Virus record (IMG/VR): IMGVR_UViG_3300022158_000006
Span: 1-31,546 of that record
Strand: one strand, 5' to 3'
DNA from: a virus
Lineage: Duplodnaviria; Caudoviricetes
DNA length: 31,546 nucleotides
Each line of letters begins with the position of its first letter. The first letter of the stretch is position 1. Positions 1-31,546 of the stretch are shown here, piece after piece. The notes under the pieces are model-generated. The model made no database searches. It saw only the letters and a list, made by a program, of their open reading frames with translations, and had not been told where the DNA came from. The translations under genes were made by a program, and so were the position numbers.

Positions 1-2316
1 ACAGGAGGTGGTGATTCTATCAAATCTACCTCTACGTCCTCAACAAGTTATAATTCATCTAAATTTTACAATGATAATTCTAAAGGATGGCACAATTTAG
101 TTTATGGTTCTGCTTATTCAGGCGGTAGTTTATTGAATGTTGGTGCTGACGGTGCTATTATTTACGGAAACACAACTTCAGGGATTACGACACTTGGTGC
201 TTTTAATTTGCTTTTTGGTACTAACAACACCCCCCGAATGACGATAGATTCGAGTGGGAATGTAGGAATAGGGACTGATAATCCGAGCGCGGGGATTCAC
301 GTTAAACACGGAAGTATAACTACTTCTTCTGACTATTCAAGTTTTTTATCAAACGCAACTGCTAAAATAGTTGCAAATCATTCAAGTGAATATGGTATTT
401 CGATTGGTTATGCTAATGCCTCAACTGACACTATTGGAATACAGTCTGGTAATACAGGAGCATCAAGACCTTTAAGTTTACAGCCTTTTGGTGGCAACGT
501 AGGAATAGGTACCAGTAGTCCAACAAGAACGCTTGAAGTAAATAGCGGAACTGCTTCTGATATTGCTAAAATTGGAAACAATAGTGGTGCGTTTACTTTT
601 GGTTATAGTGCTTCTTTAGCAAGTATTGATTTAGCAGCAAGTAATGCTTTTAGAATAAGACAGGGTGCTGTTATTCCTTTTTATATAAACACAGATAGCA
701 ACGTAGGAATAGGCACTACGAGTCCTAATTATAGGCTTAATTTATCTAATTCAAGTACTTTAACCCCAGTTTACCAACAATTTACAAACGGAACAACTGG
801 AACTACCGCAAACGATGGAACCGTTATGGGTATTGATTCAGATGGAGATTTTATAATTAACAATTTAGAAGCTAAAGATATAAAATTATACACTTCTGAC
901 ACCCCCCGAATGGTTATAGACTCGAGTGGGAATGTTAAAATTAACAATGGTTCTTTAGAATTAGGTTCAGAGGGTATTTCTTCAGGGTATGTTTACTCTC
1001 AAGAGTCTTTATACTTTAATGTTGATTCAAACAATACTCCTGAAAATTCTGTTATTGTCTTTGGAACAGGAAGAACAGGTAATACAGGTGGTAGTGAACT
1101 TATGCGCATAGAATCCGATGGAAAAATAGCTATTGATGGATATTCTAATGGTGCTTATATTAAATCTGTCGGTTCAATAAGATTTGACATAGATAGTGAC
1201 AATAATCAAACGGATAGGGCTTTTGTTGTTGGGCATAATAACGCTGCAAGTGATTTATTTATTATAAAAGAAAGTGGCAACGTAGGAATAGGGACGAGTC
1301 CGACTGCTAAATTAACTGTAAATGGAAATATTAATTTTCCATACTCTACTACTGGAACTTCTACTATCGGCATACAACAATCTCCAACAAACCCATATTC
1401 TACAACAGCAAGAGAATTACTAATAAAAGGAGCGAATGCTGAACCTACTGGGGCATCTGGACAAGCCCAACAAGGAGGTAATGTAAGAATATCAGCAGGA
1501 TTAGCACGTGTAAATACTGGTCTTGGGATAAGGGCTGGAGATGTAATTATTGAAGGTGGCTTGCACCACGATGGAGTAGGTGTTACTGATGGTGCTGGAA
1601 GAATTATTTTTAATACGGCAGGCACCGAACGAATGCGCATAACGAGTGGGGGGGATTTCTATATCGGAACTGGTGCAAGTGTAGCTTCCTCTACACAAGG
1701 TGGCGCATCTTTTGTGGTTGATACTAATGATAGGAGAACACTTTTATTATCCACACAAACAACATCAGCTAATAGTTTAGTAATTTTTTATAATACAAAT
1801 GGTGTAGTAGGTACAATTAGCACAAGTGGCTCTTCAACTGCTTACAACACAACTTCTGACTACCGACTAAAAGAAAACGTAGTGCCTATGGAGGGTGCTT
1901 TAGATAGAGTAGATGCGCTAAAACCAAGTCGCTTTAACTTTATTGCAGATGCTGACAAAACGGTAGATGGATTCCTTGCTCACGAAGTAGCCGATGTAGT
2001 ACCTGAAGCTATTAGCGGAGAAAAAGATGCTGTGGAGACTCAAGAGTATGAAGTATCTCCTGCTGTTTATGAAGATGTAGTTCATCCTGCTGTAGAAGAA
2101 GTGCTAGATGATGATGGCAATGTAGTAACTCCTGCACAAGAAGAATACACAGAAAGAGTTTTGGTTAGTGAAGCTGTTATGGGAACTAGAGAAGTTCCTG
2201 TTTATCAGGGAATCGATCAAAGCAAATTAGTACCTCTACTTACAGCAGCTTTGCAAGAAGCACATACTTTAATTAAAGAGCTAACTGCTAGAGTAGAGGC
2301 TTTAGAAAGTAATTAG
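1..2316 (+). CDS. Tail fibre/receptor-binding protein, 3' part (frame open from base 1), with GNVGIGT-linked modules and a C-terminal peptidase S74 intramolecular chaperone
   Basis: Frame 1 has no stop from 1 to 2313; repeated (E)RMxIDSSGNVGIGT linkers; S74 motifs TSDYRLKENV, GFLAHEV, IDQSKLVPLLTAALQE plus terminal coiled coil. Confidence 0.9.
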   Translation, partial: TGGGDSIKSTSTSSTSYNSSKFYNDNSKGWHNLVYGSAYSGGSLLNVGADGAIIYGNTTSGITTLGAFNLLFGTNNTPRMTIDSSGNVGIGTDNPSAGIHVKHGSITTSSDYSSFLSNATAKIVANHSSEYGISIGYANASTDTIGIQSGNTGASRPLSLQPFGGNVGIGTSSPTRTLEVNSGTASDIAKIGNNSGAFTFGYSASLASIDLAASNAFRIRQGAVIPFYINTDSNVGIGTTSPNYRLNLSNSSTLTPVYQQFTNGTTGTTANDGTVMGIDSDGDFIINNLEAKDIKLYTSDTPRMVIDSSGNVKINNGSLELGSEGISSGYVYSQESLYFNVDSNNTPENSVIVFGTGRTGNTGGSELMRIESDGKIAIDGYSNGAYIKSVGSIRFDIDSDNNQTDRAFVVGHNNAASDLFIIKESGNVGIGTSPTAKLTVNGNINFPYSTTGTSTIGIQQSPTNPYSTTARELLIKGANAEPTGASGQAQQGGNVRISAGLARVNTGLGIRAGDVIIEGGLHHDGVGVTDGAGRIIFNTAGTERMRITSGGDFYIGTGASVASSTQGGASFVVDTNDRRTLLLSTQTTSANSLVIFYNTNGVVGTISTSGSSTAYNTTSDYRLKENVVPMEGALDRVDALKPSRFNFIADADKTVDGFLAHEVADVVPEAISGEKDAVETQEYEVSPAVYEDVVHPAVEEVLDDDGNVVTPAQEEYTERVLVSEAVMGTREVPVYQGIDQSKLVPLLTAALQEAHTLIKELTARVEALESN
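259..415 (+). repeat. Copy 1 of the 157-bp repeat also found at the window end
   Basis: Identical to 31390-31546 except C288/T31419. Confidence 0.97.
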
Positions 2317-3908: not shown

Positions 3909-4040
3909 GCTCGTAGAAGCATTTTAAGGTACTTTAGAGCGACTTTTAGTTGTTTAAGGTGTCTGAGTATTACTGAGCAAGAGATAAGCTCTTAGAGAGG
4001 CTCTATTTAACTCTCTTATCACAAACCTTAAAATTCCCTG

Positions 4041-4175
4041 CTACTCTTAGAATAGCTAGTAGCAGTTATATAGCTACTCTAAGGATAGCTAGTTATTAGT
4101 TATTTAGTTATACTATAGAGTTACTCTTAGAATAGCTACTCTTAGAGTTACTCTTAGTAGCTACTTCTTAGCTAG
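4041..4175. repeat. Cluster of short direct repeats (TACTCTTAG) and TAGCTA palindromes; possible replication origin
   Basis: TACTCTTAG at 4042, 4122, 4137, 4149; 17-mer TACTCTTAGAATAGCTA at 4042 and 4122; A-tract follows; longest non-coding gap. Confidence 0.75.
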
Positions 4176-4219: not shown

Positions 4220-4474
4220 ATGAAAACTTCTGAAGTATTAGATAGAGCTGCTAAGATAATGAGCTACAAAACTTATAGCACAAGAAGGAAAATAGATTCT
4301 TTGCTAGAGTTAGATAGTATGATGTACACAGAGAGGGGTATTGACTCAACTCTTAGCGAAATGAGAGAAACAAAAAAAGCTAGTAAAAGAATTTACAGGA
4401 TGATAGCAGATATATCTCCTGTGGATGGATTTTTACTCAGAGCATTAAGCGTAGATATTCCTGAGATTGAATGA
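4220..4474 (+). CDS. Hypothetical protein
   Basis: ORF track 4205-4474; ATG 4220 is the likelier start. Confidence 0.7.
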   Translation: MKTSEVLDRAAKIMSYKTYSTRRKIDSLLELDSMMYTERGIDSTLSEMRETKKASKRIYRMIADISPVDGFLLRALSVDIPEIE

Positions 4475-4869
4475 AACAAAAGAAACCTGCTAAAAAGCCA
4501 GTAAGATCCAAACTAGTAAAAAAGCTAGATGTGATTTTCTCTCAGTACATAAGAAACAAATATGCCAACAAAAGAGGGATAGTAAAATGCTTTACTTGTG
4601 ATAGAGAGTATGAGGTGAAGAATATTCAAAATGGACACTTTATGAGCAGGAAAAACTATGCAACAAGATGGCACGAAGATAATTGCCGACCTCAATGCTA
4701 TGGATGTAATGTTATGCAACAGGGGCAGCAGTATGTATTTGCAATGAAACTGGGAAAAGAAAAAGCAGATGAGATGTATCAGCTCAGCAAAGAGACAATC
4801 AAGTTCTCAAACTATGAGCTAGAAGAAATGATAGAATACTATCAAAAAGAATTAAAAAAACTATTGTAA
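4471..4869 (+). CDS. ninG: NinG/Rap-like recombination endonuclease
   Basis: LD.IFSQYIR, CFTC, GHFMSR, RWHEDNCRPQCYGCN pattern. Confidence 0.8.
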   Translation: MKQKKPAKKPVRSKLVKKLDVIFSQYIRNKYANKRGIVKCFTCDREYEVKNIQNGHFMSRKNYATRWHEDNCRPQCYGCNVMQQGQQYVFAMKLGKEKADEMYQLSKETIKFSNYELEEMIEYYQKELKKLL

Positions 4870-5146: not shown

Positions 5147-5252
5147 AGATTTGCTAAGACTCTATGTGGCTAGAATCGAAGCACTAGAGAATCGTATAGA
5201 GGAACTAGAAGCAAAATTAGAAATATCTAAAAACAATTATTATGCAAAGTAA
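5133..5252 (+). CDS. Small coiled-coil protein (39 aa)
   Basis: Hand-translated MTYTEDLLRLYVARIEALENRIEELEAKLEISKNNYYAK. Confidence 0.6.
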   Translation: MTYTEDLLRLYVARIEALENRIEELEAKLEISKNNYYAK

Positions 5253-5604
5253 AATTACTCACGTAGAGCCAAAAGGAACGTGGAACAATGGACAGCGAAC
5301 ATTTAACAAGTATCAGGTTAGTTTCGCAAACGGAGACTCTCTTAGCTTTTTAGCGGTAGGAGAGTTTAAAAAGAAAGTAGGAGAAGTTATCTCTTATGAA
5401 AAGAATGAGCAGCATCAGACTGGTAAGCTAGTTTATGAGCAGCCTCAAGCACAAGCAAGTCCTAAAGATGATGTACAGAAATACATTATCAGACAAAGCT
5501 CACTAAACAGAGCTACAGATTTATTCTCAGGATCAGGAACTTGGGATGAAGAGCAGATTATAGAAACAGCAAGAATATTTGAAAATTACGTTTACAATGG
5601 ATAA
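5242..5604 (+). CDS. Hypothetical protein, possibly ssDNA-binding or recombination-related
   Basis: Beta-rich N-terminus, IIRQSS helix; replication-module context. Confidence 0.6.
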   Translation: MQSKITHVEPKGTWNNGQRTFNKYQVSFANGDSLSFLAVGEFKKKVGEVISYEKNEQHQTGKLVYEQPQAQASPKDDVQKYIIRQSSLNRATDLFSGSGTWDEEQIIETARIFENYVYNG

Positions 5605-5872
5605 CAAGAAACTTTTTGCAGATGGAATGTTTGCATACGAAACAGACAAAGACTGGCTACCTATGAGAATATCTTTTAGAGTTAAAGAATTTGCAGAGAC
5701 TCTAATTAAGTACAAAGACTTAGCAGATCAGAATGATGGCAAGCTAAATATAGACATCAAGAAATCTTCTAAGGGAAGCCTCTTTGCAGAGATAAACACT
5801 TGGAAAAAAGAAAGAGAAGTAACTACTGCGGATCACTCACCTGATCGTCAGGAAGCAGATTTACCATTCTAA
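5597..5872 (+). CDS. Putative single-stranded DNA-binding protein
   Basis: C-terminal SSB-type acidic tail EADLPF; ATG 5597. Confidence 0.65.
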   Translation: MDNKKLFADGMFAYETDKDWLPMRISFRVKEFAETLIKYKDLADQNDGKLNIDIKKSSKGSLFAEINTWKKEREVTTADHSPDRQEADLPF

Positions 5873-5933: not shown

Positions 5934-6833
5934 ATGATATTAAACATACAAGACCAAATTGACAAGCTAAATAAGATCCGCAAAGGAGAAGTAAGACAAG
6001 CCTATACTCTTGGAATACCTGACTTTGACGAGTATTTTAAATTATCCTTAGGACAATATAATATTATTTTAGGGCACGCAAACGTAGGAAAGACTACAAC
6101 TCTTTTGTTTATTATGTTACTCTATTCTGTTAAACATAATTTAAGATGGTTGATATACAGCTCAGAAAATGAAGCTCACACTATTATTAGAAAGTTAGCT
6201 GAATACTTAACTGGACTTCCAATAAATAAAATTGAGCAAGATGTATTTGAAGAAAAAGCTAAGTGGATAGATAAACATTTTAAAATTATTGACCCAAATA
6301 CGTTATATAGTTATAAGAAACTGCTGAATTTGGCACAAGAAATCAAAAAAGCGTGGGATTATCAGGGATTTATGATAGATCCTTATAACTCTCTAATGAT
6401 AGACAAGACTGAGCTAAAGGGTATTTCTAAGCACGATTATGACTATGAAGCATCATCAGCATTTAGAGTATTTTGTAAAACAAATAATGTAACCATAATG
6501 CTATGTATGCACGCTGCTACAGAAGCTCTAAGAAAGCTACATCCTGCTAATCACGAATATGCAGGGCATCCTGTAGCTCCTTGGGGATCAGATGCTGAAG
6601 GAGGAGGCAAGCATATTAATCGTTGTGATTCATTTTTAGTTTTTCATAGAATGACTCAACATAGTCAAGACTGGATGTATTCAATGATGCACGTTAGAAA
6701 GATAAAGGACATAGATACAAATGGGAGACCCACTTCTATAGATAGTCCTATTATGATGAGGTCTGTGCAAAACAATGTAGGCTTTACGTTAAGAGGAGAA
6801 AATATGTTACACAAAACACTTGGAAAAATATGA
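5934..6833 (+). CDS. DnaB/T7 gp4-like (SF4) replicative helicase domain protein
   Basis: Walker A GHANVGKT, YSSEN, Walker B FMIDPYN, late VRKIK motif. Confidence 0.8.
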   Translation: MILNIQDQIDKLNKIRKGEVRQAYTLGIPDFDEYFKLSLGQYNIILGHANVGKTTTLLFIMLLYSVKHNLRWLIYSSENEAHTIIRKLAEYLTGLPINKIEQDVFEEKAKWIDKHFKIIDPNTLYSYKKLLNLAQEIKKAWDYQGFMIDPYNSLMIDKTELKGISKHDYDYEASSAFRVFCKTNNVTIMLCMHAATEALRKLHPANHEYAGHPVAPWGSDAEGGGKHINRCDSFLVFHRMTQHSQDWMYSMMHVRKIKDIDTNGRPTSIDSPIMMRSVQNNVGFTLRGENMLHKTLGKI

Positions 6834-9078: not shown

Positions 9079-9846
9079 ATGATAACATTACTAGATGGAA
9101 CACAGCATAACAAAAAGGAGCTTATAGAGCAGATGCACTCAGATGAGTTCTACTACGGTTACTTATCAAAAGCAGCTCTTAGTAGTTCTTCTTTAAAACT
9201 ATTGCTTACAAGTCCTAAGACGTATTACAATGTTACTAAGTACGGTAATCCTGAAAGTCAAGCACTAAGAGATGGCTGGTTATTTCACACAGCTATACTA
9301 GAGCCTGATGTGTTTGCCTCTCAGATATTTGTAGATGTGGACAGCAAGAACTCTAAGGCTTACAAGTTAGCGAAAGAGGAACACGGTAAGGTGTTTACTA
9401 GAAAGGAAAAGCAAGATGCTGAGAGACTAGCTGATGCCTTTCTAAGAAACGAGAAGGCACTAAAGCTAATACAAGATGCAGAGTTTGAGATACCAATGAT
9501 AGGAGAGGTGATGGGGATGCCTTTTAGAGCTAAAGCAGATGTATTAGGTAATAATAAAATCATTGATTTAAAGTCTACAAGCGATATAAAAGCTTTTCCT
9601 TATAGTGCTAAAAAATATGGATACTCTGTTCAGTGTTATTTATATTGTGAATTATATGGAATAGATTACAAAGACTTCACTTTTATTGCTATGGATAAAG
9701 GAAGTTTAGATGTTGGAATTTTCCATTGCTCAGAAGAATTTTACTTAGATGGAAAAGAAAAAACTATTAAAGCAATAGAAATATATGATACGTATTTTTT
9801 ACAAGCTACAGATTTAGATCAATATTACTTAGAGGGAATATTATGA
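9079..9846 (+). CDS. Exodeoxyribonuclease VIII-like (RecE/DUF3799-type PD-(D/E)XK) exonuclease
   Basis: LSSSSLK.L..SP, G.LFHTAILEP, RAKAD, IIDLKST, Y..Q.Y.Y motifs. Confidence 0.85.
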   Translation: MITLLDGTQHNKKELIEQMHSDEFYYGYLSKAALSSSSLKLLLTSPKTYYNVTKYGNPESQALRDGWLFHTAILEPDVFASQIFVDVDSKNSKAYKLAKEEHGKVFTRKEKQDAERLADAFLRNEKALKLIQDAEFEIPMIGEVMGMPFRAKADVLGNNKIIDLKSTSDIKAFPYSAKKYGYSVQCYLYCELYGIDYKDFTFIAMDKGSLDVGIFHCSEEFYLDGKEKTIKAIEIYDTYFLQATDLDQYYLEGIL

Positions 9847-13807: not shown

Positions 13808-13841
13808 TTTAAAAAAAACTTGATTTATACGTTATATAGAT
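13808..13841 (+). promoter_or_regulatory. Putative late promoter, copy with degenerate upstream box
   Basis: CGTTATATA at 13830-13838, 3 nt before ATG 13842. Confidence 0.65.
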
Positions 13842-14492
13842 ATGAAGATAGATATTACAGTACCTGATAAACTTTCTGAGATTACTCTAGGACAGTATCA
13901 GAAATTCTTAAAGATACAGAAGGAGTCAGAAGATGAGAGATTCCTATCCTCCAAGATGATAGAGATCTTTTGCAATGTTAATTTGTCAAAGGTGATGAAC
14001 CTAAAGCTATCAGATGTGAATGGCATCTGTAGTATCTTATCAGATATGTTTAATGAAAAGCCTGCACTTAGACGTAGATTCTTTTTAAATGGAGTGGAGT
14101 ATGGGTTTGTGCCGAACTTAGAAGATATATCTTTTGGGGAGTATGTAGATCTTGATAACTATTTGTCGGACTGGGAGATGATGGACAAAGCTATGGGAGT
14201 TCTATACAGACCTATTAAGACTAAATACGGAGAAAGATATTCTATTGAGGAGTATAATGCTAGTGATACTGGGGTAATGAAAGATATGCCATTAGATGCT
14301 GCTCTAGGTGCTGTGCTTTTTTTTTATCATTTAGGGATAGACTTATCAACGACTATTCTGAACTATTTGGAACACAAGGAGGAGACAGCTTTACAGCAGT
14401 ATCTCAATTTAGCAGGAAGTGGGGATGGTATCAATCTATTTACACGCTCGCTCAAGGAGATGTTACAAGATATGAAGATATCACTCAACTAA
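13842..14492 (+). CDS. Putative tail assembly chaperone (zero-frame product)
   Basis: ITLGQYQ and ISFGEYVD motifs; internal T9 slippery site; first gene of the tail operon. Confidence 0.65.
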   Translation: MKIDITVPDKLSEITLGQYQKFLKIQKESEDERFLSSKMIEIFCNVNLSKVMNLKLSDVNGICSILSDMFNEKPALRRRFFLNGVEYGFVPNLEDISFGEYVDLDNYLSDWEMMDKAMGVLYRPIKTKYGERYSIEEYNASDTGVMKDMPLDAALGAVLFFYHLGIDLSTTILNYLEHKEETALQQYLNLAGSGDGINLFTRSLKEMLQDMKISLN

Positions 14493-15548: not shown

Positions 15549-16462
15549 TGGCAAATATATTACTCAGATCACCTTACTACGAATACAACACTCAAGCAGG
15601 TTCAGCAACAGCTACTATGGAGCTTTTCATAGATGGCACATTAAGATATACACTCTCAAAAGATGTAGATTCTGCTGAGGGAGCATTATTTGAAATCAGC
15701 GAGCTAGCAAGAGATTACTTAGACATAACATTTGATGGAACATACACCTCTCAAGTGCTAACCGTTACAGGAGATATAAAGTTCTACGATTCTAGTGATG
15801 CACAGGTAGGTTCTACAGTTAGCTTCTCACATAAGGGATTTGATGGCTATGGAGAGTTTTTAGATGGTGCTAATCCTACTATAACATCAGCAAGTCTGCT
15901 GCAAAGTAACACAACAATGTACTGGCTAGAAGGACAAGCAGGAAGAATACCTGAAGAAAGCTCAGGAGCTATAAACTATTACTCTTTTGGATCATCAGAT
16001 ACTACAGCATCAGCAGGAGGACAGTCAGTAACTATAAAGAGAGTTTGCGAGGCTAGATACACACCTATCTTAGTGACCTTTGTAAACAAGTTTGGAGCAT
16101 TGCAAGATATGTACTTCTTTAAAAAATCTATAGAAAGTGTTAGTACTAGTTCAGAGACTTACAAGCGGTCTTTAGTTGATAGCACAGGGAGCTACTCTAC
16201 TAACAAGCACTCAGTAAGAACTCTCAGAACCATAGGCACTCAGTCAATCACTATGAATACAGGCTATATGGATCAGGGAATGAATCCAGTATTAGAGCAG
16301 CTATTAATGTCTCAGCAAGTGTGGATGAATTATGAGTCTAATGTAACGCCTATTACAATTACAAGCAATCAGCTAACTTATAAAACTAGCGTCAATGATA
16401 AGCTAGTAGATTACACTATAACAGCTCAGATGGCTTTTAATCTTGCAAATGACCTCAGATAA
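15548..16462 (+). CDS. Tail-tip structural protein
   Basis: Beta-rich; FVNKFG motif; coupled to the large tail gene. Confidence 0.6.
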   Translation: MANILLRSPYYEYNTQAGSATATMELFIDGTLRYTLSKDVDSAEGALFEISELARDYLDITFDGTYTSQVLTVTGDIKFYDSSDAQVGSTVSFSHKGFDGYGEFLDGANPTITSASLLQSNTTMYWLEGQAGRIPEESSGAINYYSFGSSDTTASAGGQSVTIKRVCEARYTPILVTFVNKFGALQDMYFFKKSIESVSTSSETYKRSLVDSTGSYSTNKHSVRTLRTIGTQSITMNTGYMDQGMNPVLEQLLMSQQVWMNYESNVTPITITSNQLTYKTSVNDKLVDYTITAQMAFNLANDLR

Positions 16463-19400
16463 TGCAGACAATACAGCTATACATAGATGGACAAAGAGTA
16501 GATCTTTTTAAAGATGAGTCAGTAAGCATAACTCAGACCATACAGAATGTAAAAGATATAGCTAAGGTATTTACTGATTTTAGTAAGACCTTTAATTTGC
16601 CTGCCTCAAGAACTAATAACAAGATATTTCAGCACTATTATAACTACCACATAGATGATGGCTACGATGCTAGAAAGAAAGTATCAGCAAGAATCGATCT
16701 AAACAACAAAGAATTTAGAAAAGGAAAAATAAAGCTAGAAGGAGTAGATTTAAAAGAGGGTGAGCCACATACCTATAGAATTACTTTCTTTGGCAATACA
16801 GTCAATCTTAAAGACTTAGTAGGAGAAGATACATTAAGCTCTTTAGACTGGCTAAACAACTTCAATGCTACTTACAATGCAGCGACAGTAAAAACAGCTC
16901 TTACAGCAGGAATAGACAAAACTGTAGATTCTGTTACATACACAGATGCTCTAGTAGCACCTTTGATTACACATACTACAAGATTATTTTATAACACAGC
17001 CTACTCTAATATAGCTTATCCTGATGAGAACTCAGGCAACTTATATCCTAATGGCACTACCTCTCCAACTATGCACGGAGTTTATTACGGAGAGCTAAAA
17101 TATGCCATAGCAGTACATCTTATAGTAAAAGCAATAGAAGAGACATATAACATAAGATTCTCAGATGACTTCTTTGATAGCACAAATGACAGCTACTATG
17201 ATTTGTATATGTGGCTACATAGAAAGAAAGGAGATGCCTTTGAGGAGGATGAACCAATAACAGAGCTAATAGATAACTTTACAGTAGATACATCTTCTAT
17301 GAGTAAGGTGCTATTTCTACAATCTAGCTTTTTTATATTTGGATTAGTAGGTTCTCAGTCGCTTCCTTACACTCTTACAGTTAATAGTTCTACATCTAAT
17401 CCTTACACAGTTATCATTAAAAAGGATGGACAAGTATTTGCTCAGCAAAGTGTTACTAGTGGCAATAATGTTTTAACAGGATATTTGACTAACAGCTCAT
17501 CAGGCTACTCTGTTTACATTCAGACAGACACAGCTATGACAGTTACCTCTGTTACAGTAGAAATTACAGATCCTTACATCTCACAAAGTAATACTTATTC
17601 TACTAGCGGTTCTTCATCAATAACCACTACAAGAAACTTCATTATAACAGAGCAGATTCCTAAGATAAAAGTAATAGACTTCCTTACAGGACTTTTTAAG
17701 ATGTTTAATTTGACAGCTTACTATGATGGGGAGACTATTGCAGTAAAAACTTTAGATGAGTACTATTCAGATTCTACTACGACTTGGGATATTACAGAGT
17801 ATGTAGATAACACTCAAGGATCAGTAGATATAGCCTTGCCTTTTAAAGAGGTAGATTTTAGCTATGAGGGATTAGGAACTAAACTAGCACTAAGACACGA
17901 GCAAGATAATAATCAAGGATGGGGTACTACAGAATATAGAGGGGGAGATAACTATGATGCAGGAGGGGATGTGTACTCTGTGAAAGCTCCTTTTGAACAC
18001 GTTAAATATGAGAGGCTAATTGATGGTGCTACTTCGTCAGCTACCTTTGTGCAAGTGGGCTGGTTTGTAGATGATAACAATGATCCTTACTATGGAAAGC
18101 CTTTGTTGTTTTATCCTATTTTAAATTCAGGTACTACGATACGATTCTTAGAAGATTCGACAAGCACCTACTCAGATATATCAGCCTATTTCATTCCATC
18201 TAATAGCGTTTCTTTAAATTCACTTACAAGCACTAGAAACATTAACTATAATCTAGAGGTAAATGAGTACACAGCAGATACTAGCTTTTCAGGAACGTTA
18301 TTTCAGCAGTATTATAGCAGCTATATTTCAGAAGTGTATAACAACAAGCTAAGACTCACTAAATATAAAGCATATTTGCCTCTTAAATTCTTGCTTAATT
18401 ACAGCCTAGCAGATGAGGTGCAAGTCTTAGATAGAAAATACAGAATAAATAGCATACAAACTAACTTAGAAACAGGAGAGAGCGACTTAGAGCTGCTTAA
18501 TATAATCACCTTTCCTCCTCCTCCTGAGCAATCAGTAGCAGCAGTAGCTACGACTAGTCAAACATCAGTTACACAAACCTCAGCAGTATTTAATGGGCAA
18601 GTAACAGATGAGGGCAATCCTGCATATACAGAGAGAGGATTTTACTGGAAAGTAGGCACAGGCACTCCAACAGCTTCTGATAATAAGCAAGTAGTAGCAG
18701 GAACAGATACTAATTCTTACTCATACACTAATAGCTCACTATCAGCAGGCACTACTTACACCTACATAGCCTTTGCTACTAACTCTATAGGCACTTCCAC
18801 AGGTGCTGCTATAACTTTTACTACATCAGCAGCTCTTAGTTTGCCAGTAGTTCAAACATCAGGCACATCTTCAGTTACTCAGACCTCTGCTAACTTCTTA
18901 GGATATGTATCAAGTGTGGGTAATCCTAACTATACAGTAAAGGGATTCTATTGGGTGCAAGGTACAGGCACACCTACTGCTAGTGATAACGTGGTGAATG
19001 TATCAGGAACATCATCAGGATCATATCAAACAAACGTTACAGGACTTAGCTCAGCTACTTCTTACTCTATTGTGGCTTTTGCTACTAACACTCAAGGAAC
19101 AGCTACAGGCTCTAAGTTTACTTTTACTACTGCTGCTAGCACTTATGCTCCATCAGTAACAACTAATGCAGCTACAGGAGTGGGAACAGGAGGAGCTACA
19201 TTAAACGGAGACATCACAGACGTAGGTAATCCTAATTACACAGAGAAAGGCTTTGTTTACTTAGCAGGATCAGGAACACCTACTACAGCAAACACAAAAG
19301 TAACAGTATCAGGCACGTCATCAGGAGCGTATAGCACGATTATAAGCTCTCTTAGCTCATCTCAGCTATATTCCTATAGAGCGTATGCTATAAACACAGT

Positions 19401-20493
19401 AGGAACATCCTATGGAGCTACACAGACCTTTACAACAGCCTCTGCGGTTACCTGTGATGGAGGTACGTTATACTTCCAAAACCATCAAATATCAGGAATC
19501 AATGCTACACTAGCAAATGGTACTTTGACCTATGGCACAGGAGAGTGTGGTGATCCTATTAGTCCTCAATTAGAATTACTATTCACTAACAATGAAGGAG
19601 AGTGGGTATCTACTTCTCAGATTACTAGCTTGCAGTTATACGAGGGAGCAACAAATGTTACAAGCCAGTACACTATTGGTGCTACACTAACAGGAGATGT
19701 GATGAAGATTACGCTATCAGGCAACTTCCCTAGTGATACAAATGATGGAGACCACACCTATAGCTTCCACATTACAGCTTACAATGTAACATCTTATACT
19801 ACAACTATAACACTACCTACTGCTAGTGATGTAGAGAATAGCTCATTAACAGTTACTCCTGATACATCAGCTTCTTATCCTGCTTCTAAGACAGATACAG
19901 ATTACAATGTATCTACTTTATATCCTAGAGGTGAGGTAGGAGATGCTTACAGATACACTTTGACATACACAGCAGATTCAGGATTTGAGTGGACAGGCTT
20001 AGGAAACATAACAAGCCCTACAGTTAGTCCATCAGGTACAGGGGTGTCAGCAACGGCAAGCTCATATACTAGCACAACACTTACAGTAATTATAAGTGGC
20101 ACTATTCAGTCTAGCGATAAGTCAGCTACTGTAGCTTACACAGGTAGTCCTATAGCTGATGCTGCCACATCAGTAAGTCAGATTAGATATAAATTATCAA
20201 GCGGATCAACTTGGATAACAGTTACTACTCCTAGAGCTATTCAAGTTAATGAGAACACTTCTTATGATATTGAGGTAACAGCTAATGGAGCATACTATGT
20301 AAGCTATCAAAATAGCACACTCGTTGCATCATTATCTCCAACAGTAAACGACACAGGAGATGTTATGGTACATACCTTAGTAACAAATAATGGCTTAGTA
20401 GGAGGTGGTGATTTGACAGGACAATTCTTGATTTATCCTAGAGGTAGTGTTACTCTACTATCAGGAGTAAGATTAGATTTTATAGATTCATAA
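16462..20493 (+). CDS. Large tail-tip/hub protein with C-terminal FN3/Ig-like repeats
   Basis: FSKTFNLPA...NN.IF, FLTGLFKMFNL, YRINSI..NL.TG.S.LEL; three ~102-aa repeats after a PPPP hinge. Confidence 0.8.
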   Translation: MQTIQLYIDGQRVDLFKDESVSITQTIQNVKDIAKVFTDFSKTFNLPASRTNNKIFQHYYNYHIDDGYDARKKVSARIDLNNKEFRKGKIKLEGVDLKEGEPHTYRITFFGNTVNLKDLVGEDTLSSLDWLNNFNATYNAATVKTALTAGIDKTVDSVTYTDALVAPLITHTTRLFYNTAYSNIAYPDENSGNLYPNGTTSPTMHGVYYGELKYAIAVHLIVKAIEETYNIRFSDDFFDSTNDSYYDLYMWLHRKKGDAFEEDEPITELIDNFTVDTSSMSKVLFLQSSFFIFGLVGSQSLPYTLTVNSSTSNPYTVIIKKDGQVFAQQSVTSGNNVLTGYLTNSSSGYSVYIQTDTAMTVTSVTVEITDPYISQSNTYSTSGSSSITTTRNFIITEQIPKIKVIDFLTGLFKMFNLTAYYDGETIAVKTLDEYYSDSTTTWDITEYVDNTQGSVDIALPFKEVDFSYEGLGTKLALRHEQDNNQGWGTTEYRGGDNYDAGGDVYSVKAPFEHVKYERLIDGATSSATFVQVGWFVDDNNDPYYGKPLLFYPILNSGTTIRFLEDSTSTYSDISAYFIPSNSVSLNSLTSTRNINYNLEVNEYTADTSFSGTLFQQYYSSYISEVYNNKLRLTKYKAYLPLKFLLNYSLADEVQVLDRKYRINSIQTNLETGESDLELLNIITFPPPPEQSVAAVATTSQTSVTQTSAVFNGQVTDEGNPAYTERGFYWKVGTGTPTASDNKQVVAGTDTNSYSYTNSSLSAGTTYTYIAFATNSIGTSTGAAITFTTSAALSLPVVQTSGTSSVTQTSANFLGYVSSVGNPNYTVKGFYWVQGTGTPTASDNVVNVSGTSSGSYQTNVTGLSSATSYSIVAFATNTQGTATGSKFTFTTAASTYAPSVTTNAATGVGTGGATLNGDITDVGNPNYTEKGFVYLAGSGTPTTANTKVTVSGTSSGAYSTIISSLSSSQLYSYRAYAINTVGTSYGATQTFTTASAVTCDGGTLYFQNHQISGINATLANGTLTYGTGECGDPISPQLELLFTNNEGEWVSTSQITSLQLYEGATNVTSQYTIGATLTGDVMKITLSGNFPSDTNDGDHTYSFHITAYNVTSYTTTITLPTASDVENSSLTVTPDTSASYPASKTDTDYNVSTLYPRGEVGDAYRYTLTYTADSGFEWTGLGNITSPTVSPSGTGVSATASSYTSTTLTVIISGTIQSSDKSATVAYTGSPIADAATSVSQIRYKLSSGSTWITVTTPRAIQVNENTSYDIEVTANGAYYVSYQNSTLVASLSPTVNDTGDVMVHTLVTNNGLVGGGDLTGQFLIYPRGSVTLLSGVRLDFIDS

Positions 20494-20647: not shown

Positions 20648-22239
20648 AAATTGATGTAGATTCTAGATCCTTAGGGGAGTTAGAAGATATGTTACAAGAT
20701 GTTAATGAAGAGTTAAAAGACTTAGACAGGAATAGTGATGCTTTTAAAGAGGCTGCTGCTAAATCTCAAATACTAAGCAAAGAAATTGAAAAAATCAACA
20801 ATGAGATAGAGGGTTTTGATCTAGAGGACAAAATAATGGCAGCAGATGGAGCTGCTAAAGTTTTTGGAGGATCACTCTCTGCTGTTGTCGGCACGTTGGG
20901 TACACTAGGTATAGAATCGGAGGCATTTGGTGAATTTGAAGAAAAGGCTGCCTCTGCTATTGCTGTAGGGTTAGGTATTAAAGATGTATCAGAGGGATTT
21001 GGTCAGCTTAGAATAGCTATTGCTAAATCAGGGGGAGCATCTAAGTTATTTGGCATAACAACAAAAAAGGCATTAATAGCTACAGGTATAGGTGCTTTTG
21101 TAGTCGCAATAGGAAGTATAGTTGCTTATTGGGATGAAATTAACGCTGCAGTAAAAAGGTTTGGGCAAAACGTGCCTTTTGTTGGTAAAGCTATAGAGTT
21201 AATTCAAGATAGTTTTAATTCACTTTATGATGCTGCTAAGCCTGTATTGCAATTTTTAGGCATATTGCCTAGTGAGGCGGAAGAGGCACAAAAGAAAATA
21301 GCAGAAACTAGTTCAAAGACTATAAGAGAACTACAAAGAGAAATAGCATTAGCTCAAGCAAGAGGAGATTCAGAGAGAGAACTGTTCAAGCTTAGAGAAA
21401 AATTATTACAAGAAGAACTTTCAATGCTAGAAAGAGGTAATGCTGAGAAAGATGAAATATATAAAAAAGAAACAGAGTTACTTGCATTGCAATTAGCTGA
21501 GCAAAAAAGATTAAGAGAGGAGTCTGAACAAACTGTAGTTAGAGAAAAGGTAAATACAGTAAATGCTATTAAAACTACAGCAGATGAAGAGGTAAAAACT
21601 GAAGGAATAAAAACTCAACAAATAAGCATATTTAATAAAGCAGCACACGATCAAAACGCACAAATGCTCTTAGATCAAATAGATGCACAAGCTCAACTAG
21701 ATGCAGCACGACAAAACTCACTTAACAATATTATTGCAATAGCAGGTACTGAAAGCAGAGTAGGCAGGGCGGCATTAATAGCTAAACAAGTGCTATCTGC
21801 TCAAGAAATGATAATAAATGCTAAAAAAACTTTAAGTAATATAGCATCGAGTTCAGCAGAAGCAGGTGTATCTACAGCAACAGGATTTGCTCAGACATTA
21901 AAAGCTGGTTTCCCTCAAAACATTCCATTGTTAATAGCTTATGCAGCACAAGCTTATAGTATTGGCGCAAGCATTGCATCTGCTATAGGTAAAGCAAAAA
22001 GCAGTGTTGGAGCGGCAGGCGGTGGTGTCAATATTCCTAGTATGAGTACTATATCTGCACCTACAGCATCAGCACCACAAGCACCTGCCTTTAATGTAGT
22101 GGGAGCATCAGGTATGAATCAGCTTGCAGAGGGGATAGCAGGCGCACAAGCTAGACCACAGAGAGCCTATGTAGTAGCTAATGATGTTACAACAGCTCAG
22201 GGTATGGATAGAAACATAGTAGAAGGTGCTAGTATTTAA
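20626..22239 (+). CDS. Tail tape measure protein (short, 537 aa)
   Basis: Helical, Ala/Gly/Glu-rich; ALIATGIGAFVVAIG; C-terminal RAYVV..DVT. Confidence 0.8.
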   Translation: MAQKYQIEIDVDSRSLGELEDMLQDVNEELKDLDRNSDAFKEAAAKSQILSKEIEKINNEIEGFDLEDKIMAADGAAKVFGGSLSAVVGTLGTLGIESEAFGEFEEKAASAIAVGLGIKDVSEGFGQLRIAIAKSGGASKLFGITTKKALIATGIGAFVVAIGSIVAYWDEINAAVKRFGQNVPFVGKAIELIQDSFNSLYDAAKPVLQFLGILPSEAEEAQKKIAETSSKTIRELQREIALAQARGDSERELFKLREKLLQEELSMLERGNAEKDEIYKKETELLALQLAEQKRLREESEQTVVREKVNTVNAIKTTADEEVKTEGIKTQQISIFNKAAHDQNAQMLLDQIDAQAQLDAARQNSLNNIIAIAGTESRVGRAALIAKQVLSAQEMIINAKKTLSNIASSSAEAGVSTATGFAQTLKAGFPQNIPLLIAYAAQAYSIGASIASAIGKAKSSVGAAGGGVNIPSMSTISAPTASAPQAPAFNVVGASGMNQLAEGIAGAQARPQRAYVVANDVTTAQGMDRNIVEGASI

Positions 22240-22240
22240 A

Positions 22241-22274
22241 ATGCAAAACATTAAGATATAAACGTTATATAATT
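22241..22274 (+). promoter_or_regulatory. Putative late promoter
   Basis: ATGCAAAA-N14-CGTTATATA-N3-ATG. Confidence 0.75.
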
Positions 22275-23930: not shown

Positions 23931-24075
23931 ACACGACAACAAAACCCCTAGTAGAACATCACCTAAAGGAAGCAAGAGAGGCTGCCTTTGCAAAGACTCT
24001 AACACATATTCTAGCAAGTGCTGTGATGGCTCTTTGTGGGCGCAGGGAATAGGTAACATCTACGGAAATAACTAA
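23923..24075 (+). CDS. Small Cys-rich protein (50 aa)
   Basis: Hand-translated MPKHDNKTPSRTSPKGSKRGCLCKDSNTYSSKCCDGSLWAQGIGNIYGNN. Confidence 0.7.
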   Translation: MPKHDNKTPSRTSPKGSKRGCLCKDSNTYSSKCCDGSLWAQGIGNIYGNN

Positions 24076-24077
24076 AA

Positions 24078-24111
24078 ATGCAAAATACTAATTAATAATC
24101 GTTATATAAAT
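24078..24111 (+). promoter_or_regulatory. Putative late promoter
   Basis: ATGCAAAA-N14-CGTTATATA-N3-ATG. Confidence 0.75.
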
Positions 24112-29052: not shown

Positions 29053-29144
29053 AATATAAACCAAAGCAAACCAATATTACAAAACTAAAACAGTACTTAA
29101 ATAAAATAACAAACAATGGCAACACTAACAGGAAATACAATTAA
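29049..29144 (+). CDS. Possible small basic peptide (31 aa)
   Basis: Hand-translated MKYKPKQTNITKLKQYLNK...; ATGA coupling. Confidence 0.4.
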   Translation: MKYKPKQTNITKLKQYLNKITNNGNTNRKYN

Positions 29145-31546
29145 GGACACTTATCAGTCGCTCCTTAAAGTAAATGACAATGGAGAGCTAGCAGCAACTC
29201 TTCAAGAGATTACAGATGGAGTTGGTAATGGCTCAGGTGTCAGCTTAAACACAACTGGTGATCTTAAAGCAGAGGGAACTATTGAGTTTGGCTCTTTGAA
29301 AGACACAGGAGAAGCTATCACTATAACAAAGTTTGTAGATGAGGCTGATGGTATTGCAAATAACGATAATGATACTTCTATTCCTACTTCTGCTGCCATT
29401 ATAGATTATGTAGCTGCAAAAATTACAGAAGAGGATTTAGACTTTGCAGGAGATTCAGGTACTGGCTCTGTAGATTTAGACTCTCAGACTTTCACTATTG
29501 GAGGTACTGCTAATCAAATAGAAACTACAGCAACTGGTCAAAGCCTTACTATAGCTTTTCCTAGCGCAGGTGTTGTTTTACCTGATGGTTCTACTGCTAC
29601 TACTCAAGCTATTTCTGACGACTCAACAAAGGTTGCTACTACTGCTTATGTTAAATCAGTTCTTACTCAAGAGGACTTAGATTTTCAAGGTGATACAGGA
29701 ACAGGAAGTGTGGACTTAGATTCTGAGGTGCTAGATATTGCAGGAGGTACAGGAATTGATACGGTAGCATCAGGGCAAACTCTTACAGTTAATATTGATA
29801 GCACAGTAGCAACGCTTACAGGCACTCAGACGCTTACTAACAAAACAATAAATGCTGATAATAATACTATCTCAAACTTAGAAGTAGATAACTTAAAAGC
29901 AGGAGTATTAGATACAGATTTGACTACTGTTTCAGCATCAGATGATACTTTAGCTTCGGCAAAAGCGATTAAGACTTATGTAGATGCTAATATCACAGCT
30001 CAGGACTTAGATATAACAGATGGAACTACTACCTCAGCAGTAGATTTGGATTCTCAGACAATGACTATCCAAGGCACAGCTAATGAGGTGGAGGTTAGCT
30101 TAACAGATCAGACTTTTACAGTAGGACTTCCTGATACTATCAATGTAAATGTTTCAGGTAACATCACAGGAGACATCACAGGCAATGCAGGTACAGCTAC
30201 TGCTTTAGAAACAGCTAGAGATATTGCATTATCAGGAGACGTAGTAGGATCAGCTAGCTTTGATGGTACTGCTAATATTACAATAGCTGCCACTATTCAG
30301 GCTGACTCAGTAGCACTAGGAACAGATACCACAGGAGACTATGTAGCTAACTTAGGAACTGGTACAGGGGTTACTATTGCAAGCAACACAGGAGAAGGAT
30401 CACAGCCTACAATTTCAGTAGATTATGGCTCAACAGCTAACACAGCAGTAGAGGGAGATACTGAGATTACAATAAGCGGCACTACAAACCAAATAGAAAT
30501 AACAGGAACTGCTAATCAAGCACTAGGAGGTTCACCATCTTACACAGTAGGCTTACCTGATGATGTTACAATAGCAGGCAGCTTGATAGTTAGCAATGAT
30601 CTAACAGTAAATGGTACTACTACCACAGTAAACACTCAGACGCTATCAGTAGAAGATCCACTAATTGCTTTGGCTATTGCTAATGATGCTAACTCAGTAG
30701 ATACAGGATTCTATGCTAAATACTCTTTAGATTCAGGTGTTACTACTAAGTTTGCAGGGTTATTTAAGGATGCTTCAGATACTGATACTTTTAAGCTATT
30801 TAAAGGCTTAGAGGTAGAGCCTACTACTACTGTTGATACGGCAGGCACAGGATATGCTTTAGCAGACATTCAGGTAGCAGGATTAGAGGCCACTACAATT
30901 GTAAAAACAGGAGGATCATCTACAGAGTTCTTAAAAGCAGATGGCTCAATAGATTCTAACACTTACCTCACAGCAGAAAGCGACACTTTAGATGCTGTTA
31001 CAACAAGAGGCAACACTACTACTAACTCAATAGAAGTAGGAGCTGCTACAATCACAGGCGACCTTACAGTAGATACAAACACTTTATACGTTGATAGTAC
31101 TGACAATCGAGTGGGGATAGGTACTACGAGTATTAATTCTAAAGTTCAAATAGAACAACCGCAACAAATATCAGGTGCATTTTCAAATCCATTTATTAAA
31201 TTATCAAATTCAGCACAAACTGACAATATTGGTACAACTGCAATAGCTTTAGCAACTTCTACTGCTGATAATTATGGATATGCTATAAGTGCAAAAAGAG
31301 GCACAAGTGGAGCTGATTCAAGTTTTATTATAACACATCACGACAATAGTTTAACTGGCACAGAACGAATGCGTATCGACTCAAGTGGTAATGTAGGAAT
31401 AGGGACTGATAATCCGAGTGCGGGGATTCACGTTAAACACGGAAGTATAACTACTTCTTCTGACTATTCAAGTTTTTTATCAAACGCAACTGCTAAAATA
31501 GTTGCAAATCATTCAAGTGAATATGGTATTTCGATTGGTTATGCTA
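29116..31546 (+). CDS. Tail fibre protein, 5' part (runs off the window; absent from the ORF track); joins 416-2316 in frame, about 1443 aa in total
   Basis: ATG 29116 MATLTGNTIKDTYQSLLK; no stop seen; three DLD..D....VDLDS repeats, VEDPLI, then RVGIGT/GNVGIGT modules; repeat offset 31131 is a multiple of 3. Confidence 0.88.
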   Translation, partial: MATLTGNTIKDTYQSLLKVNDNGELAATLQEITDGVGNGSGVSLNTTGDLKAEGTIEFGSLKDTGEAITITKFVDEADGIANNDNDTSIPTSAAIIDYVAAKITEEDLDFAGDSGTGSVDLDSQTFTIGGTANQIETTATGQSLTIAFPSAGVVLPDGSTATTQAISDDSTKVATTAYVKSVLTQEDLDFQGDTGTGSVDLDSEVLDIAGGTGIDTVASGQTLTVNIDSTVATLTGTQTLTNKTINADNNTISNLEVDNLKAGVLDTDLTTVSASDDTLASAKAIKTYVDANITAQDLDITDGTTTSAVDLDSQTMTIQGTANEVEVSLTDQTFTVGLPDTINVNVSGNITGDITGNAGTATALETARDIALSGDVVGSASFDGTANITIAATIQADSVALGTDTTGDYVANLGTGTGVTIASNTGEGSQPTISVDYGSTANTAVEGDTEITISGTTNQIEITGTANQALGGSPSYTVGLPDDVTIAGSLIVSNDLTVNGTTTTVNTQTLSVEDPLIALAIANDANSVDTGFYAKYSLDSGVTTKFAGLFKDASDTDTFKLFKGLEVEPTTTVDTAGTGYALADIQVAGLEATTIVKTGGSSTEFLKADGSIDSNTYLTAESDTLDAVTTRGNTTTNSIEVGAATITGDLTVDTNTLYVDSTDNRVGIGTTSINSKVQIEQPQQISGAFSNPFIKLSNSAQTDNIGTTAIALATSTADNYGYAISAKRGTSGADSSFIITHHDNSLTGTERMRIDSSGNVGIGTDNPSAGIHVKHGSITTSSDYSSFLSNATAKIVANHSSEYGISIGYA
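31390..31546 (+). repeat. Copy 2 of the 157-bp repeat (circularisation overlap)
   Basis: Matches 259-415; the last 127 bp are an exact match to 289-415. Confidence 0.97.

What the first reader, a model, noticed from the sequence alone, without database searches (positions are those of the whole stretch)
227..1655. Fibre linkers conserved at synonymous sites: candidate recombinase-free module-shuffling system
Seen: GCAACGTAGGAATAGG is identical at 494, 698 and 1277, and AATGTAGGAATAGG occurs at 259 and 31390, so V-G-I uses GTA GGA ATA in all five. 227-263 and 899-935 match at 33 of 37 nt while keeping codons otherwise rare here (ACC CCC CGA, TCG, GGG). GGCACnGAACGAATGCG recurs at 1621 and 31357. 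The ~60-110 aa modules between linkers are unrelated to each other. Inference: the linkers are in-frame microhomology crossover points for exchanging receptor-binding modules, possibly using the phage RecE-like and NinG-like proteins. No invertase or reverse transcriptase is present, so this is neither a shufflon nor a DGR.
Basis: partly seen in the sequence, partly recalled or inferred. Interest (0 to 1): 0.72.

Follow-up and report, generated by a model that had tools for sequence, protein, structure and literature searches.

The report
Phage fibre modules swapped at linkers
The fibre gene of this uncultured aquatic phage is a chain of unrelated modules of about 80 amino acids joined by one repeated 18-amino-acid linker; related phages, including distant ones, carry the same modules in other orders with the switch points inside the linkers, most likely through ordinary homologous recombination, and the linker DNA shows an unexplained C-rich-then-G-rich spelling bias also seen in some bacteria.

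Summary
The motifs are present, but 259 and 31390 are one locus: the contig ends overlap, and bases 1-258 come from a minority haplotype. The gene encodes an S74-chaperoned fibre: unrelated modules joined by an 18-residue linker that aligns with Bdellovibrio MAT fibre structures.

Module exchange at the linkers is well supported: 53 of 58 non-redundant homology breakpoints fall inside the linker (chance 0.36). All eight reference modules occur beside other neighbours, some at 98-100% identity in a phage with a 66%-identical portal.

Synonymous conservation is only partly confirmed. Over whole window linkers it equals the codon null (0.41). In relatives, linkers within one gene exceed it (0.55 vs 0.44); linkers in different genes do not. 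Linkers favour C-ending codons before the crossover zone and G-ending codons after it, also in other viruses and Patescibacteria.

No recombinase, reverse transcriptase or annealase was found; a role for RecE or NinG is unsupported, and receptor binding untested.

Verdict: a many-linker variant of known conserved-motif fibre recombination (T-even gp37/gp38), not a dedicated system. The scan noted this earlier on other DNA, and the skew lead came from one such note.

The parts
29116..31546 (+). 5' part of the fibre gene: anchor region with three DLD[FI] repeats, then linker 1, module w1, linker 2 and the start of w2. It continues in frame at window 416 (majority gene about 1443 aa).
   Evidence: (L001/L002 99.97% identical and continuous)
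259..2316 (+). 3' part of the same fibre gene (259-415 duplicates 31390-31546): modules w2-w7, tip region, S74 chaperone
1..258 (+). Alternative module (cluster m5) and its linker start, from a minority haplotype or co-occurring phage, joined by the assembler through the shared module w2
   Evidence: depth 21.9 vs 222.2; m5 at 97-99% in L241, L242, L255, L257, L259, L294; m5 directly before w2 in L242/L257/L259
31081..31134 (+). Linker 1 (TLYVDSTDNRVGIGTTSI); L004, L005 and L006 stop matching the window here
31135..31362 (+). Module w1 interior (76 aa); 95-96% identical copies with other neighbours in L003 and L267
31363..31416 (+). Linker 2 of the majority haplotype (ERMRIDSSGNVGIGTDNP); L003 stops matching here
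232..285 (+). Linker 2 as spelled in the minority haplotype (PRMTIDSSGNVGIGTDNP); same locus as 31363-31416
286..468 (+). Module w2 (61 aa); 10 occurrences, with at least 5 different left and 6 different right neighbours
469..522 (+). Linker 3
523..672 (+). Module w3 (50 aa)
673..726 (+). Linker 4
727..903 (+). Module w4 (59 aa)
904..957 (+). Linker 5 (PRMVIDSSGNVKINNGSL)
958..1095 (+). Module w5 (46 aa)
1096..1149 (+).
1150..1251 (+). Module w6 (34 aa); skipped in a contig of run X16; sits between other neighbours in L006
1252..1305 (+). Linker 7
1306..1626 (+). Module w7 (107 aa)
1627..1680 (+). Linker 8; L002 carries an extra 207-nt module between two copies of this linker
1855..2010 (+). 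Peptidase_S74 intramolecular chaperone (SDYRLK motif)
   Evidence: PF13884 E=1.7e-8
9079..9846 (+). RecE/exonuclease VIII-like PD-(D/E)XK nuclease; involvement in shuffling not shown
4471..4869 (+). NinG/Rap-like junction endonuclease; involvement in shuffling not shown

Best explanation
The gene encodes an S74-chaperoned fibre made of unrelated modules joined by a repeated 18-residue linker, and relatives differ by whole modules gained, lost or reordered at switch points inside the linkers, most likely through ordinary homology-driven recombination between co-infecting phages. SHOWN: the architecture, the breakpoint positions, module sharing between phages with diverged backbones, excess DNA similarity among linkers of one gene, and a local switch from C-ending to G-ending codons centred on the crossover zone. 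INFERRED: (1) the linker is the beta-helix capping-loop joint seen in Bdellovibrio MAT fibres, so it is both the only homology shared by unrelated modules and a joint at which a chimera keeps frame and fold; (2) short overlaps of roughly 8-24 nt inside it seed crossovers, by host or phage recombination proteins not identified here; (3) repeated crossovers homogenise linker DNA within a gene pool as a by-product; (4) the polar bias likely records strand-specific processing of the heteroduplex. One model, fitted after seeing the data and given about 0.3: G-T mispairs near each annealed 3' end survive trimming and are then repaired to G-C, whereas A-C mispairs are trimmed away. UNTESTED: that the modules bind receptors and that swaps change host range.
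For: Breakpoints: 180 of 217 alignment ends (>=90% identity, >=120 nt) lie inside the 54-nt linker, null 0.22; 53 of 58 with one changepoint per module cluster and side, chance 0.36; left ends centre near nt 23 and right ends near nt 41, overlapping on GNVGIG. Each of 8 reference modules has alternative neighbours. Modules are 98-100% identical in L241, whose portal is 66% and head gene 67% identical to the window's. L002 has a clean 207-nt extra module between two linker copies. Independent run contigs show insertion, deletion and reordering at linkers. Same-gene linkers with unrelated flanks: synonymous identity 0.554 vs 0.437+-0.009; exact runs of 15 nt or more in 15.7% vs 3.4% of 568 pairs; 42 of 49 ORFs above their own null. 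Core-gene orthologues at 80-90% amino-acid identity exceed their null by only 0.05-0.09. Skew in 182 non-redundant linkers: C/(C+T) 301/694=0.43 at codons 5-10 and G/(G+A) 158/377=0.42 at codons 13-17, against 0.11-0.19 in the flanks; left C above the gene's own background in 111 of 117 ORFs and right G in 100 of 117. Not explained by dipeptide context, residue conservation or a hairpin. The linker aligns to PDB 8OJN (Bd3182) and 8OND (Bd2133), E 8.7e-8 and 4.3e-7.
Against: The window's own whole linkers are no more synonymously alike than the null (0.413 vs 0.396-0.423). Across genes, mean identity is 0.405 vs 0.419-0.425; only long runs are slightly enriched. Only 3 of 18 recombinant-plus-two-parent triplets fit with at most one mismatch (overlaps 8, 10 and 15 nt); the other 15 need 2-13 mismatches. 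No annealase found. The mispair model without its added repair step predicts A enrichment on the left, which is absent (G share 0.17 vs 0.13). All evidence is from assembled contigs; no raw or long reads were laid. Many relatives were recruited with the window's own modules.
Confidence: 0.82

Rival explanations
1. Protein filter only: joints arise by illegitimate recombination anywhere, only in-register joints within the structural linker fold and survive, and linker DNA similarity is leftover ancestry.
For: The linker is a conserved structural motif (capping loops in PMC10769870). No mean synonymous excess in the window or across genes. Breakpoints in linkers are also what selection on folding alone would leave.
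Against: Linkers of one gene with unrelated flanks are more alike at silent sites than core orthologues at 80-90% identity. A strand-polar codon switch sits on the crossover zone and is spelled with different codons in viruses and in cells. The three clean triplets show 8-15 nt overlaps.
Confidence: 0.09
2. A dedicated system: a site-specific recombinase, or the phage's RecE-like and NinG proteins acting on a fixed DNA site, shuffles the modules.
For: RecE-like and NinG genes are present. A purine core GTA GGA AT is over-used at V-G-I (GTA 0.62 vs 0.39, GGA 0.66 vs 0.35).
Against: Changepoints spread over the whole 54 nt, and triplet crossover midpoints range from nt 0 to 44. Linker DNA is not fixed across genes. 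No recombinase family was found. The same linker and skew occur in Patescibacteria and other cellular genomes.
Confidence: 0.05
3. Assembly artefact: short shared linkers make assemblers join modules from different phages.
For: The window's own first 258 nt are such a join, through a shared module of 127 nt or more. Paralogous linkers share up to 19 nt exactly in the window. 97 of 130 variable junctions are seen in one locus only.
Against: 33 of 130 variable junctions recur in two or more loci (whether those loci come from independent samples was not checked). Shared modules differ by up to about 10%. A single contig of run X23 carries m5, 247 other bases, then w2, the order also seen in L241. 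The codon skew does not depend on junction calls.
Confidence: 0.04

Closest known systems
Recombination between conserved motifs in T-even distal tail-fibre and adhesin genes gp37/gp38 (Tetart et al. 1998, seen only as a citation; Trojet et al. 2011, PMC3157838, passages read)
   Same: Conserved motifs alternate with variable segments inside one fibre gene; exchanges fall in or near the motifs; no site-specific recombinase; a population-wide library of parts.
   Different: Unrelated motif and protein family (no gp37/gp38 family hit). Here 8-9 equivalent linkers allow modules to change position and number. Whole unrelated modules move rather than hypervariable loops. A change of host range is not shown.
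Bdellovibrio mosaic adhesive trimers, MAT (Caulton et al. 2024, PMC10769870; sections 11-13 and passages read)
   Same: Same linker sequence (alignment to Bd3182 8OJN and Bd2133 8OND); S74 chaperone with SDxxxK; both S74 and non-S74 ends exist among relatives (68 and 38 of 106 complete ends); tips described as exchanged in evolution.
   Different: A phage gene with a different N-terminal anchor. In the parts read, the paper treats the capping loop as a structural motif and does not analyse it as a DNA crossover point.
Conserved DNA motifs flanking the receptor-binding domain in E. coli tailspike genes (PMC10408124, passages) and putative N-terminal hotspots in Klebsiella phage RBPs (bioRxiv 10.64898/2026.05.12.724579, passages)
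   Same: A short conserved coding stretch proposed as a recombination hotspot across phage genera.
   Different: One anchor-to-domain joint per gene there, many joints here. Here crossovers were mapped to the motif and a codon null was applied.
Shufflons and tail-fibre invertible systems (Rci, Gin, Cin); diversity-generating retroelements (both recalled, not read)
   Same: Diversify an adhesin or fibre gene.
   Different: No recombinase or reverse transcriptase; linkers are direct repeats within one frame; parts come from other genomes.

Membership tests
Conserved-motif recombination in fibre/adhesin genes (T-even gp37/gp38 type) | Conserved motifs alternating with variable segments in one fibre gene | tested here: met
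   744 linkers in 128 ORFs, 0 in shuffles at the threshold used; median spacing 79 aa; 594 interiors fall into 409 nucleotide families
Conserved-motif recombination in fibre/adhesin genes (T-even gp37/gp38 type) | Exchanges fall in or near the motifs | tested here: met
   180 of 217; 53 of 58
Conserved-motif recombination in fibre/adhesin genes (T-even gp37/gp38 type) | Exchange alters host specificity | not testable with these tools
   uncultured phage, host unknown
T-even gp37/gp38 protein families | Sequence homology to gp37 or gp38 | tested here: not met
   The only Pfam hit in either part of the fibre is Peptidase_S74; it works like them but is not one of them
Bdellovibrio MAT fibres | Capping-loop motif between beta-helix segments | tested here: met
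   Linker aligns residue by residue with 8OJN and, in three stretches, with 8OND
Bdellovibrio MAT fibres | C-terminal S74 domain with SDxxxK (or an alternative tip) | tested here: met
   PF13884 at aa 619-670, SDYRLK
Bdellovibrio MAT fibres | Signal peptide followed by a conserved ~130-aa N-terminal beta domain | not tested
   The N-terminal part was not compared with MAT N-termini; its PHROG hits are phage baseplate, minor tail and unknown families
Bdellovibrio MAT fibres | Trimeric beta-helix fold | tested here: inconclusive
   Single-sequence monomer model of 232-960 had mean pLDDT 38.8; no trimer was modelled
Shufflon / invertible fibre switch | Site-specific recombinase gene and inverted crossover sites | tested here: not met
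Diversity-generating retroelement | Reverse transcriptase and a template/variable repeat pair | tested here: not met
   No RT; the only long repeat is the end overlap
Red/RecET-type phage recombination pair | Exonuclease plus single-strand annealing protein | tested here: inconclusive
   Exonuclease present. RecT, ERF and Rad52 each 0 of 1 genome. Candidate 5242-5604 models as a small beta barrel plus two helices with only weak OB-fold hits. A remote annealase is not excluded.

The most novel reading that the evidence does not exclude
One structural linker serves as a common recombination joint for a shared library of fibre modules in aquatic phages and in host-attaching cells (Patescibacteria, Bdellovibrionota, Woesearchaeota). 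Its C-then-G codon polarity is the footprint of a strand-biased conversion at annealed 3' ends, or of selection on silent sites for staying recombinable. The switch would then mark active crossover joints from a single sequence, and silent sites would be under selection for evolvability.
Probability: 0.3. Interest if true: 0.75.

Novelty: new variant of a known kind. Interest (0 to 1): 0.52.

Why it matters
It ties a structurally solved motif (the MAT capping loop) to mapped crossover points, and shows near-identical fibre modules moving between phages with diverged backbones. This offers a reason why such genes break metagenome assemblies and why fibre diversity is combinatorial. The polar codon switch gives a measurable handle on an old question: are recombination-promoting sequences in adhesin genes by-products, or are they maintained? 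The basic mechanism is known, which limits the score.

Tried and rejected
1. Five independent V-G-I copies: rejected; 259 and 31390 are one locus.
2. A tandem duplication of module w2 in one genome: rejected; L001/L002 have it once.
3. A family-wide fixed DNA site: rejected; cross-gene synonymous identity is at the null.
4. Window-only tests of mean identity and of a position-specific codon score: negative.
5. Dipeptide context: does not give the bias, e.g. AAC before Val 0.27, TCG before Pro 0.09, ACG after Gly 0.10.
6. Conserved residues simply keeping CpG or C-ending codons: conserved columns of three core genes have CpG o/e 0.66-0.68, against 1.08 in linkers.
7. RNA or DNA hairpin: energy equals base-shuffled and half-recombined controls; top mean pair probability 0.14.
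8. Leading/lagging-strand skew: the bias is confined to the linker.
9. Deamination of exposed single strands: by my reasoning it predicts the opposite sign outside the joint, and the flanks are flat.
10. 5242-5604 as an annealase: no match at E<=0.001 in PDB. 5579-5872: Atlas neighbours unnamed.
11. Monomer fold of the module region: uninformative.
12. The 29000-31546 end was not covered by run data; statements about it rest on loci L001-L006 and on loose ends seen.
13. Host assignment: terminase best hits are Bacteroidota phages at only 33-34% identity; host left open.
14. Prior description of this linker as a crossover site, or of the skew: not found in searches (open-access library only; no supplements read).
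Full report
SETTING. The window is the whole record (CheckV estimate 98% complete). It is a phage with terminase, portal, thymidylate synthase, MazG, DnaB-like helicase, a RecE-like nuclease (9079-9846) and NinG (4471-4869). Of 24 runs listed, 23 hold it: 22 freshwater and 1 estuary metagenome. The host is unknown; the best terminase hits are Bacteroidota phages at 33-34% identity. The fibre gene follows the portal and a DUF6712 gene, so its place on the virion is not established.

THE OBSERVATION. All quoted strings are present, and 227-263 matches 899-935 at 33 of 37 nt. But 31390-31546 repeats 259-415 with one difference, and the last 127 nt are identical; 127 is a usual top k-mer in SPAdes (recalled). 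Upstream of the linker the two ends are unrelated. L001 and L002 match 28552-31546 at 99.97% and run on into window 416 and beyond. The majority gene is therefore 29116-31546 plus 416-2316 (about 1443 aa) on an inferred circle of 31,131 bp. In run X4 the contig covering 1-272 has depth 21.9; the contig covering 253-531 has depth 222.2, and its loose end reads like the 31350 region (4 of 24 runs laid, contigs only). Bases 1-258 are module m5, found at 97-99% in six loci and directly before w2 in L242, L257 and L259.

CODON NULL IN THE WINDOW. GTA, GGA and ATA are the commonest codons of the genome. Four identical V-G-I spellings have P about 5e-4, but the triplet was chosen after the fact. Over all 8 majority linkers, synonymous identity is 0.413 against 0.396 (genome usage) or 0.423 (module usage); 1874 and 2981 of 5000 simulations reach it. 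A position-specific score trained on other viruses is not significant either (906 and 2640 of 5000). Two features do exceed chance: 3 of 28 pairs share 15 nt or more exactly (P 0.004 and 0.007), and the linkers hold 21 CpG against 9.2 or 7.0 expected.

WHAT THE PROTEIN IS. The C-terminus is a Peptidase_S74 chaperone. The four PDB sequences matched at E<=1 were Bd3182 (8OJN, E 8.7e-8), Bd2133 (8OND, E 4.3e-7) and two chance hits, and the alignments centre on the linker (entry identities). Caulton et al. (PMC10769870; sections 11-13 read whole, plus passages) describe these as trimeric beta-helix fibres with repeated capping loops, two beta-helix regions in the Bd2133 tip, and exchanged tips. 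That the phage modules are beta-helix segments between such loops is inferred from this. My own monomer model was uninformative.

DATASET. 297 loci came from scans with the anchor, the upstream gene, the S74 end and the modules. Two loci that are the window's own contig were left out of the fibre set. 153 linker-bearing ORFs fell to 128 after removing contained copies. A profile (consensus ERMRIDSSGNVGIGTTSP) found 744 linkers and none in shuffles at the threshold used; median spacing is 79 aa. 594 interiors of 60-600 nt form 435 clusters at 85% identity and 409 families at 65%. Module sharing with the window is partly by construction; neighbours and breakpoints are not.

BREAKPOINTS. Of 217 distinct ends of alignments with 90% or more identity, 120 nt or more, and unrelated flanks, 180 lie in the 54-nt linker (null 0.22) and 199 within 10 nt of it (null 0.30). 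These ends are not independent. With one changepoint per module cluster and side, 53 of 58 lie in the linker (chance 0.36); left ends centre near nt 23 and right ends near nt 41. All eight modules of L002 occur with other neighbours; w2 has at least 5 left and 6 right neighbours in 10 occurrences. L241 shares m5, w2 and w8 at 98-100% nucleotide identity although its portal is 66% and its DUF6712 protein 67% identical. L003 (97%) leaves the window at linker 2; L004-L006 (95%) leave at linker 1. L002 has an extra 207-nt module between two linker copies. Run contigs show 247 extra bases between m5 and w2 (X23), a skip from 1110 to 1273 (X16) and a joint from 1314 back to 1 (X20). Of 130 variable junctions, 33 recur in two or more loci and 97 do not; sample independence was not checked. 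Of 18 triplets with two candidate parents, 3 fit with at most one mismatch (overlaps 8, 10 and 15 nt); the rest need 2-13, as expected if the true parents are unsampled.

SILENT SITES IN RELATIVES. For 568 pairs of linkers in the same ORF with unrelated flanks, synonymous identity is 0.554 against 0.437+-0.009 under each ORF's own usage. Runs of 15 nt or more occur in 15.7% against 3.4% of pairs, and 42 of 49 ORFs exceed their null. Orthologues of three core genes exceed their null by 0.02-0.07 at 70-80% amino-acid identity and by 0.05-0.09 at 80-90%, so paralogous linkers look younger than their flanking modules. For 3000 sampled cross-ORF pairs the mean is 0.405 against 0.419-0.425, with a small excess of runs of 20 nt or more (1.0% vs 0.3-0.4%). 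The linker is thus homogenised within gene pools, not fixed across the family.

POLAR SKEW. Linkers have CpG o/e 1.08, modules 0.56 and simulated linkers 0.53. An earlier scan note (e1-6004643) pointed to a C/A-then-G/T switch, which I tested. In 182 non-redundant linkers, C/(C+T) is 301/694 at codons 5-10 and 49/528 at codons 13-17; G/(G+A) is 66/387 and 158/377. Flanks are 0.15-0.19 and 0.11-0.16. Per ORF, left C exceeds the gene's own background in 111 of 117 and right G in 100 of 117 (11 of 128 ORFs lacked data). A codon-agnostic pattern scan gave 124 viral loci (10 of 64 parts scanned) and 132 cellular loci (52 of 64 parts); 99 and 60 ORFs had enough background. C share is higher left than right in 82 of 98 viral and 44 of 59 cellular ORFs; G share is higher right than left in 54 of 88 and 36 of 51 (ties dropped). 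By taxon, labelled from the first 80 loci only: Patescibacteria 11 of 13 on both sides; Bdellovibrionota 5 of 5 left but only 3 of 5 right (0.46 vs 0.43); Woesearchaeota 2 of 3 on both sides. Some cellular contigs may be misbinned phage. Viruses and cells use different codons to the same effect (GTC 0.11 vs 0.64, TCG 0.41 vs 0.07), which suggests a process rather than one inherited spelling. Dipeptide context, residue conservation and hairpins do not explain it.

MECHANISM. Inferred: two fibre genes pair over a short stretch inside any two linkers, and the crossover yields an in-frame chimera whose joint is again a linker. Crossovers between different linkers change module order or number. Repeated exchange homogenises the linker DNA. 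The polarity implies strand-specific handling of the heteroduplex. One model: near each annealed 3' end a G-T mispair is tolerated and an A-C mispair is trimmed and recopied, and surviving G-T pairs are repaired to G-C. This gives C gain on the left and G gain on the right with muted A and T effects, as observed. The repair step was added after seeing the data, so I give it about 0.3; selection on silent sites remains open. The enzymes are unknown. RecE-like and NinG genes are present, but no RecT, ERF or Rad52 (0 of 1 genome each, controls ringing). The candidate 5242-5604 models well (pLDDT 89) as a beta barrel plus helices, with no PDB match at E<=0.001.

COMPARISON. Exchange in or near conserved motifs of fibre and adhesin genes is described for T-even gp37/gp38 (PMC3157838, passages; Tetart 1998 seen only as a citation). 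A conserved joint at tailspike anchors is described in PMC10408124 (passages) and in bioRxiv 10.64898/2026.05.12.724579 (passages). Variable fibres in aquatic phages are reported in PMC3909814, PMC7468147, PMC12379486 and PMC7029224 (passages); the passages read do not describe this linker. Searches found no paper on this linker as a crossover site or on the skew; the library is open-access only and no supplements were read (the MAT paper's Supplementary Fig. 18 aligns capping loops and may bear on this). The scan has noted linker shuffling in at least seven other genomes; those notes are unchecked and are not counted as support.

VERDICT. Real and well supported as module exchange at linkers. 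It works like T-even conserved-motif recombination, in a many-linker MAT-like fibre, and is not a dedicated or recombinase-specific system. The unexplained polar silent-site bias is the part worth following. Interest 0.52; new variant of a known kind.

Noticed in passing
window 4040-4170: Non-coding cluster of GCTACTCTTAG-type direct repeats between the lysis and replication genes; possible origin iterons.
   Followed up: no
window 13812-13858, 22238-22281, 24075-24118, 26325-26371, 6283-6319: A shared CGTTATATA motif; four copies lie just upstream of structural-region gene starts and one lies inside the helicase gene. Possible late promoter (families D8, D9, D13).
   Followed up: no
window 29434-30057; L007 3293-4918; L009 5559-7016: The anchor region also varies by repeats: the window has three DLD[FI] repeats and one NKTI segment; L007 and L009 have two and two.
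   Followed up: partly
L257, L259, L242, L205, L252, L280 and others: 19 of 103 loci carry two or more linker-bearing ORFs, so exchange between fibre genes of one genome is possible.
   Followed up: partly
L004 3350-6749; L006 3-3819: Phages whose anchor is 97% identical to the window's end in a non-S74 tip (LDDYEEG type). Among 106 complete ends: 68 S74, 15 LDDYEEG, 23 other.
   Followed up: partly
window 5242-5604 and 5579-5872: Two unnamed virus-specific proteins next to the helicase. The first models as an OB-like barrel plus two helices with a conserved QxxIIRQS motif; the second ends in an acidic DLPF tail, like single-strand binding proteins (recalled).
   Followed up: partly
window 2030-2200: The S74 chaperone has an acidic insert that is much shorter in L016.
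   Followed up: no
L303-L434: The exact linker peptide occurs in many Patescibacteria, Bdellovibrionota and some Woesearchaeota genomes, all groups with host-attached lifestyles (recalled).
   Followed up: partly
L002 11641-15038: A relative 99.97% identical over the head gene and fibre anchor has a diverged replication block (NinG 89%, helicase 71%), suggesting a further module swap outside the fibre.
   Followed up: no
window 16462-20493: 1343-aa tail-region protein with several internal repeats of about 100 aa and no Pfam hit.
   Followed up: no
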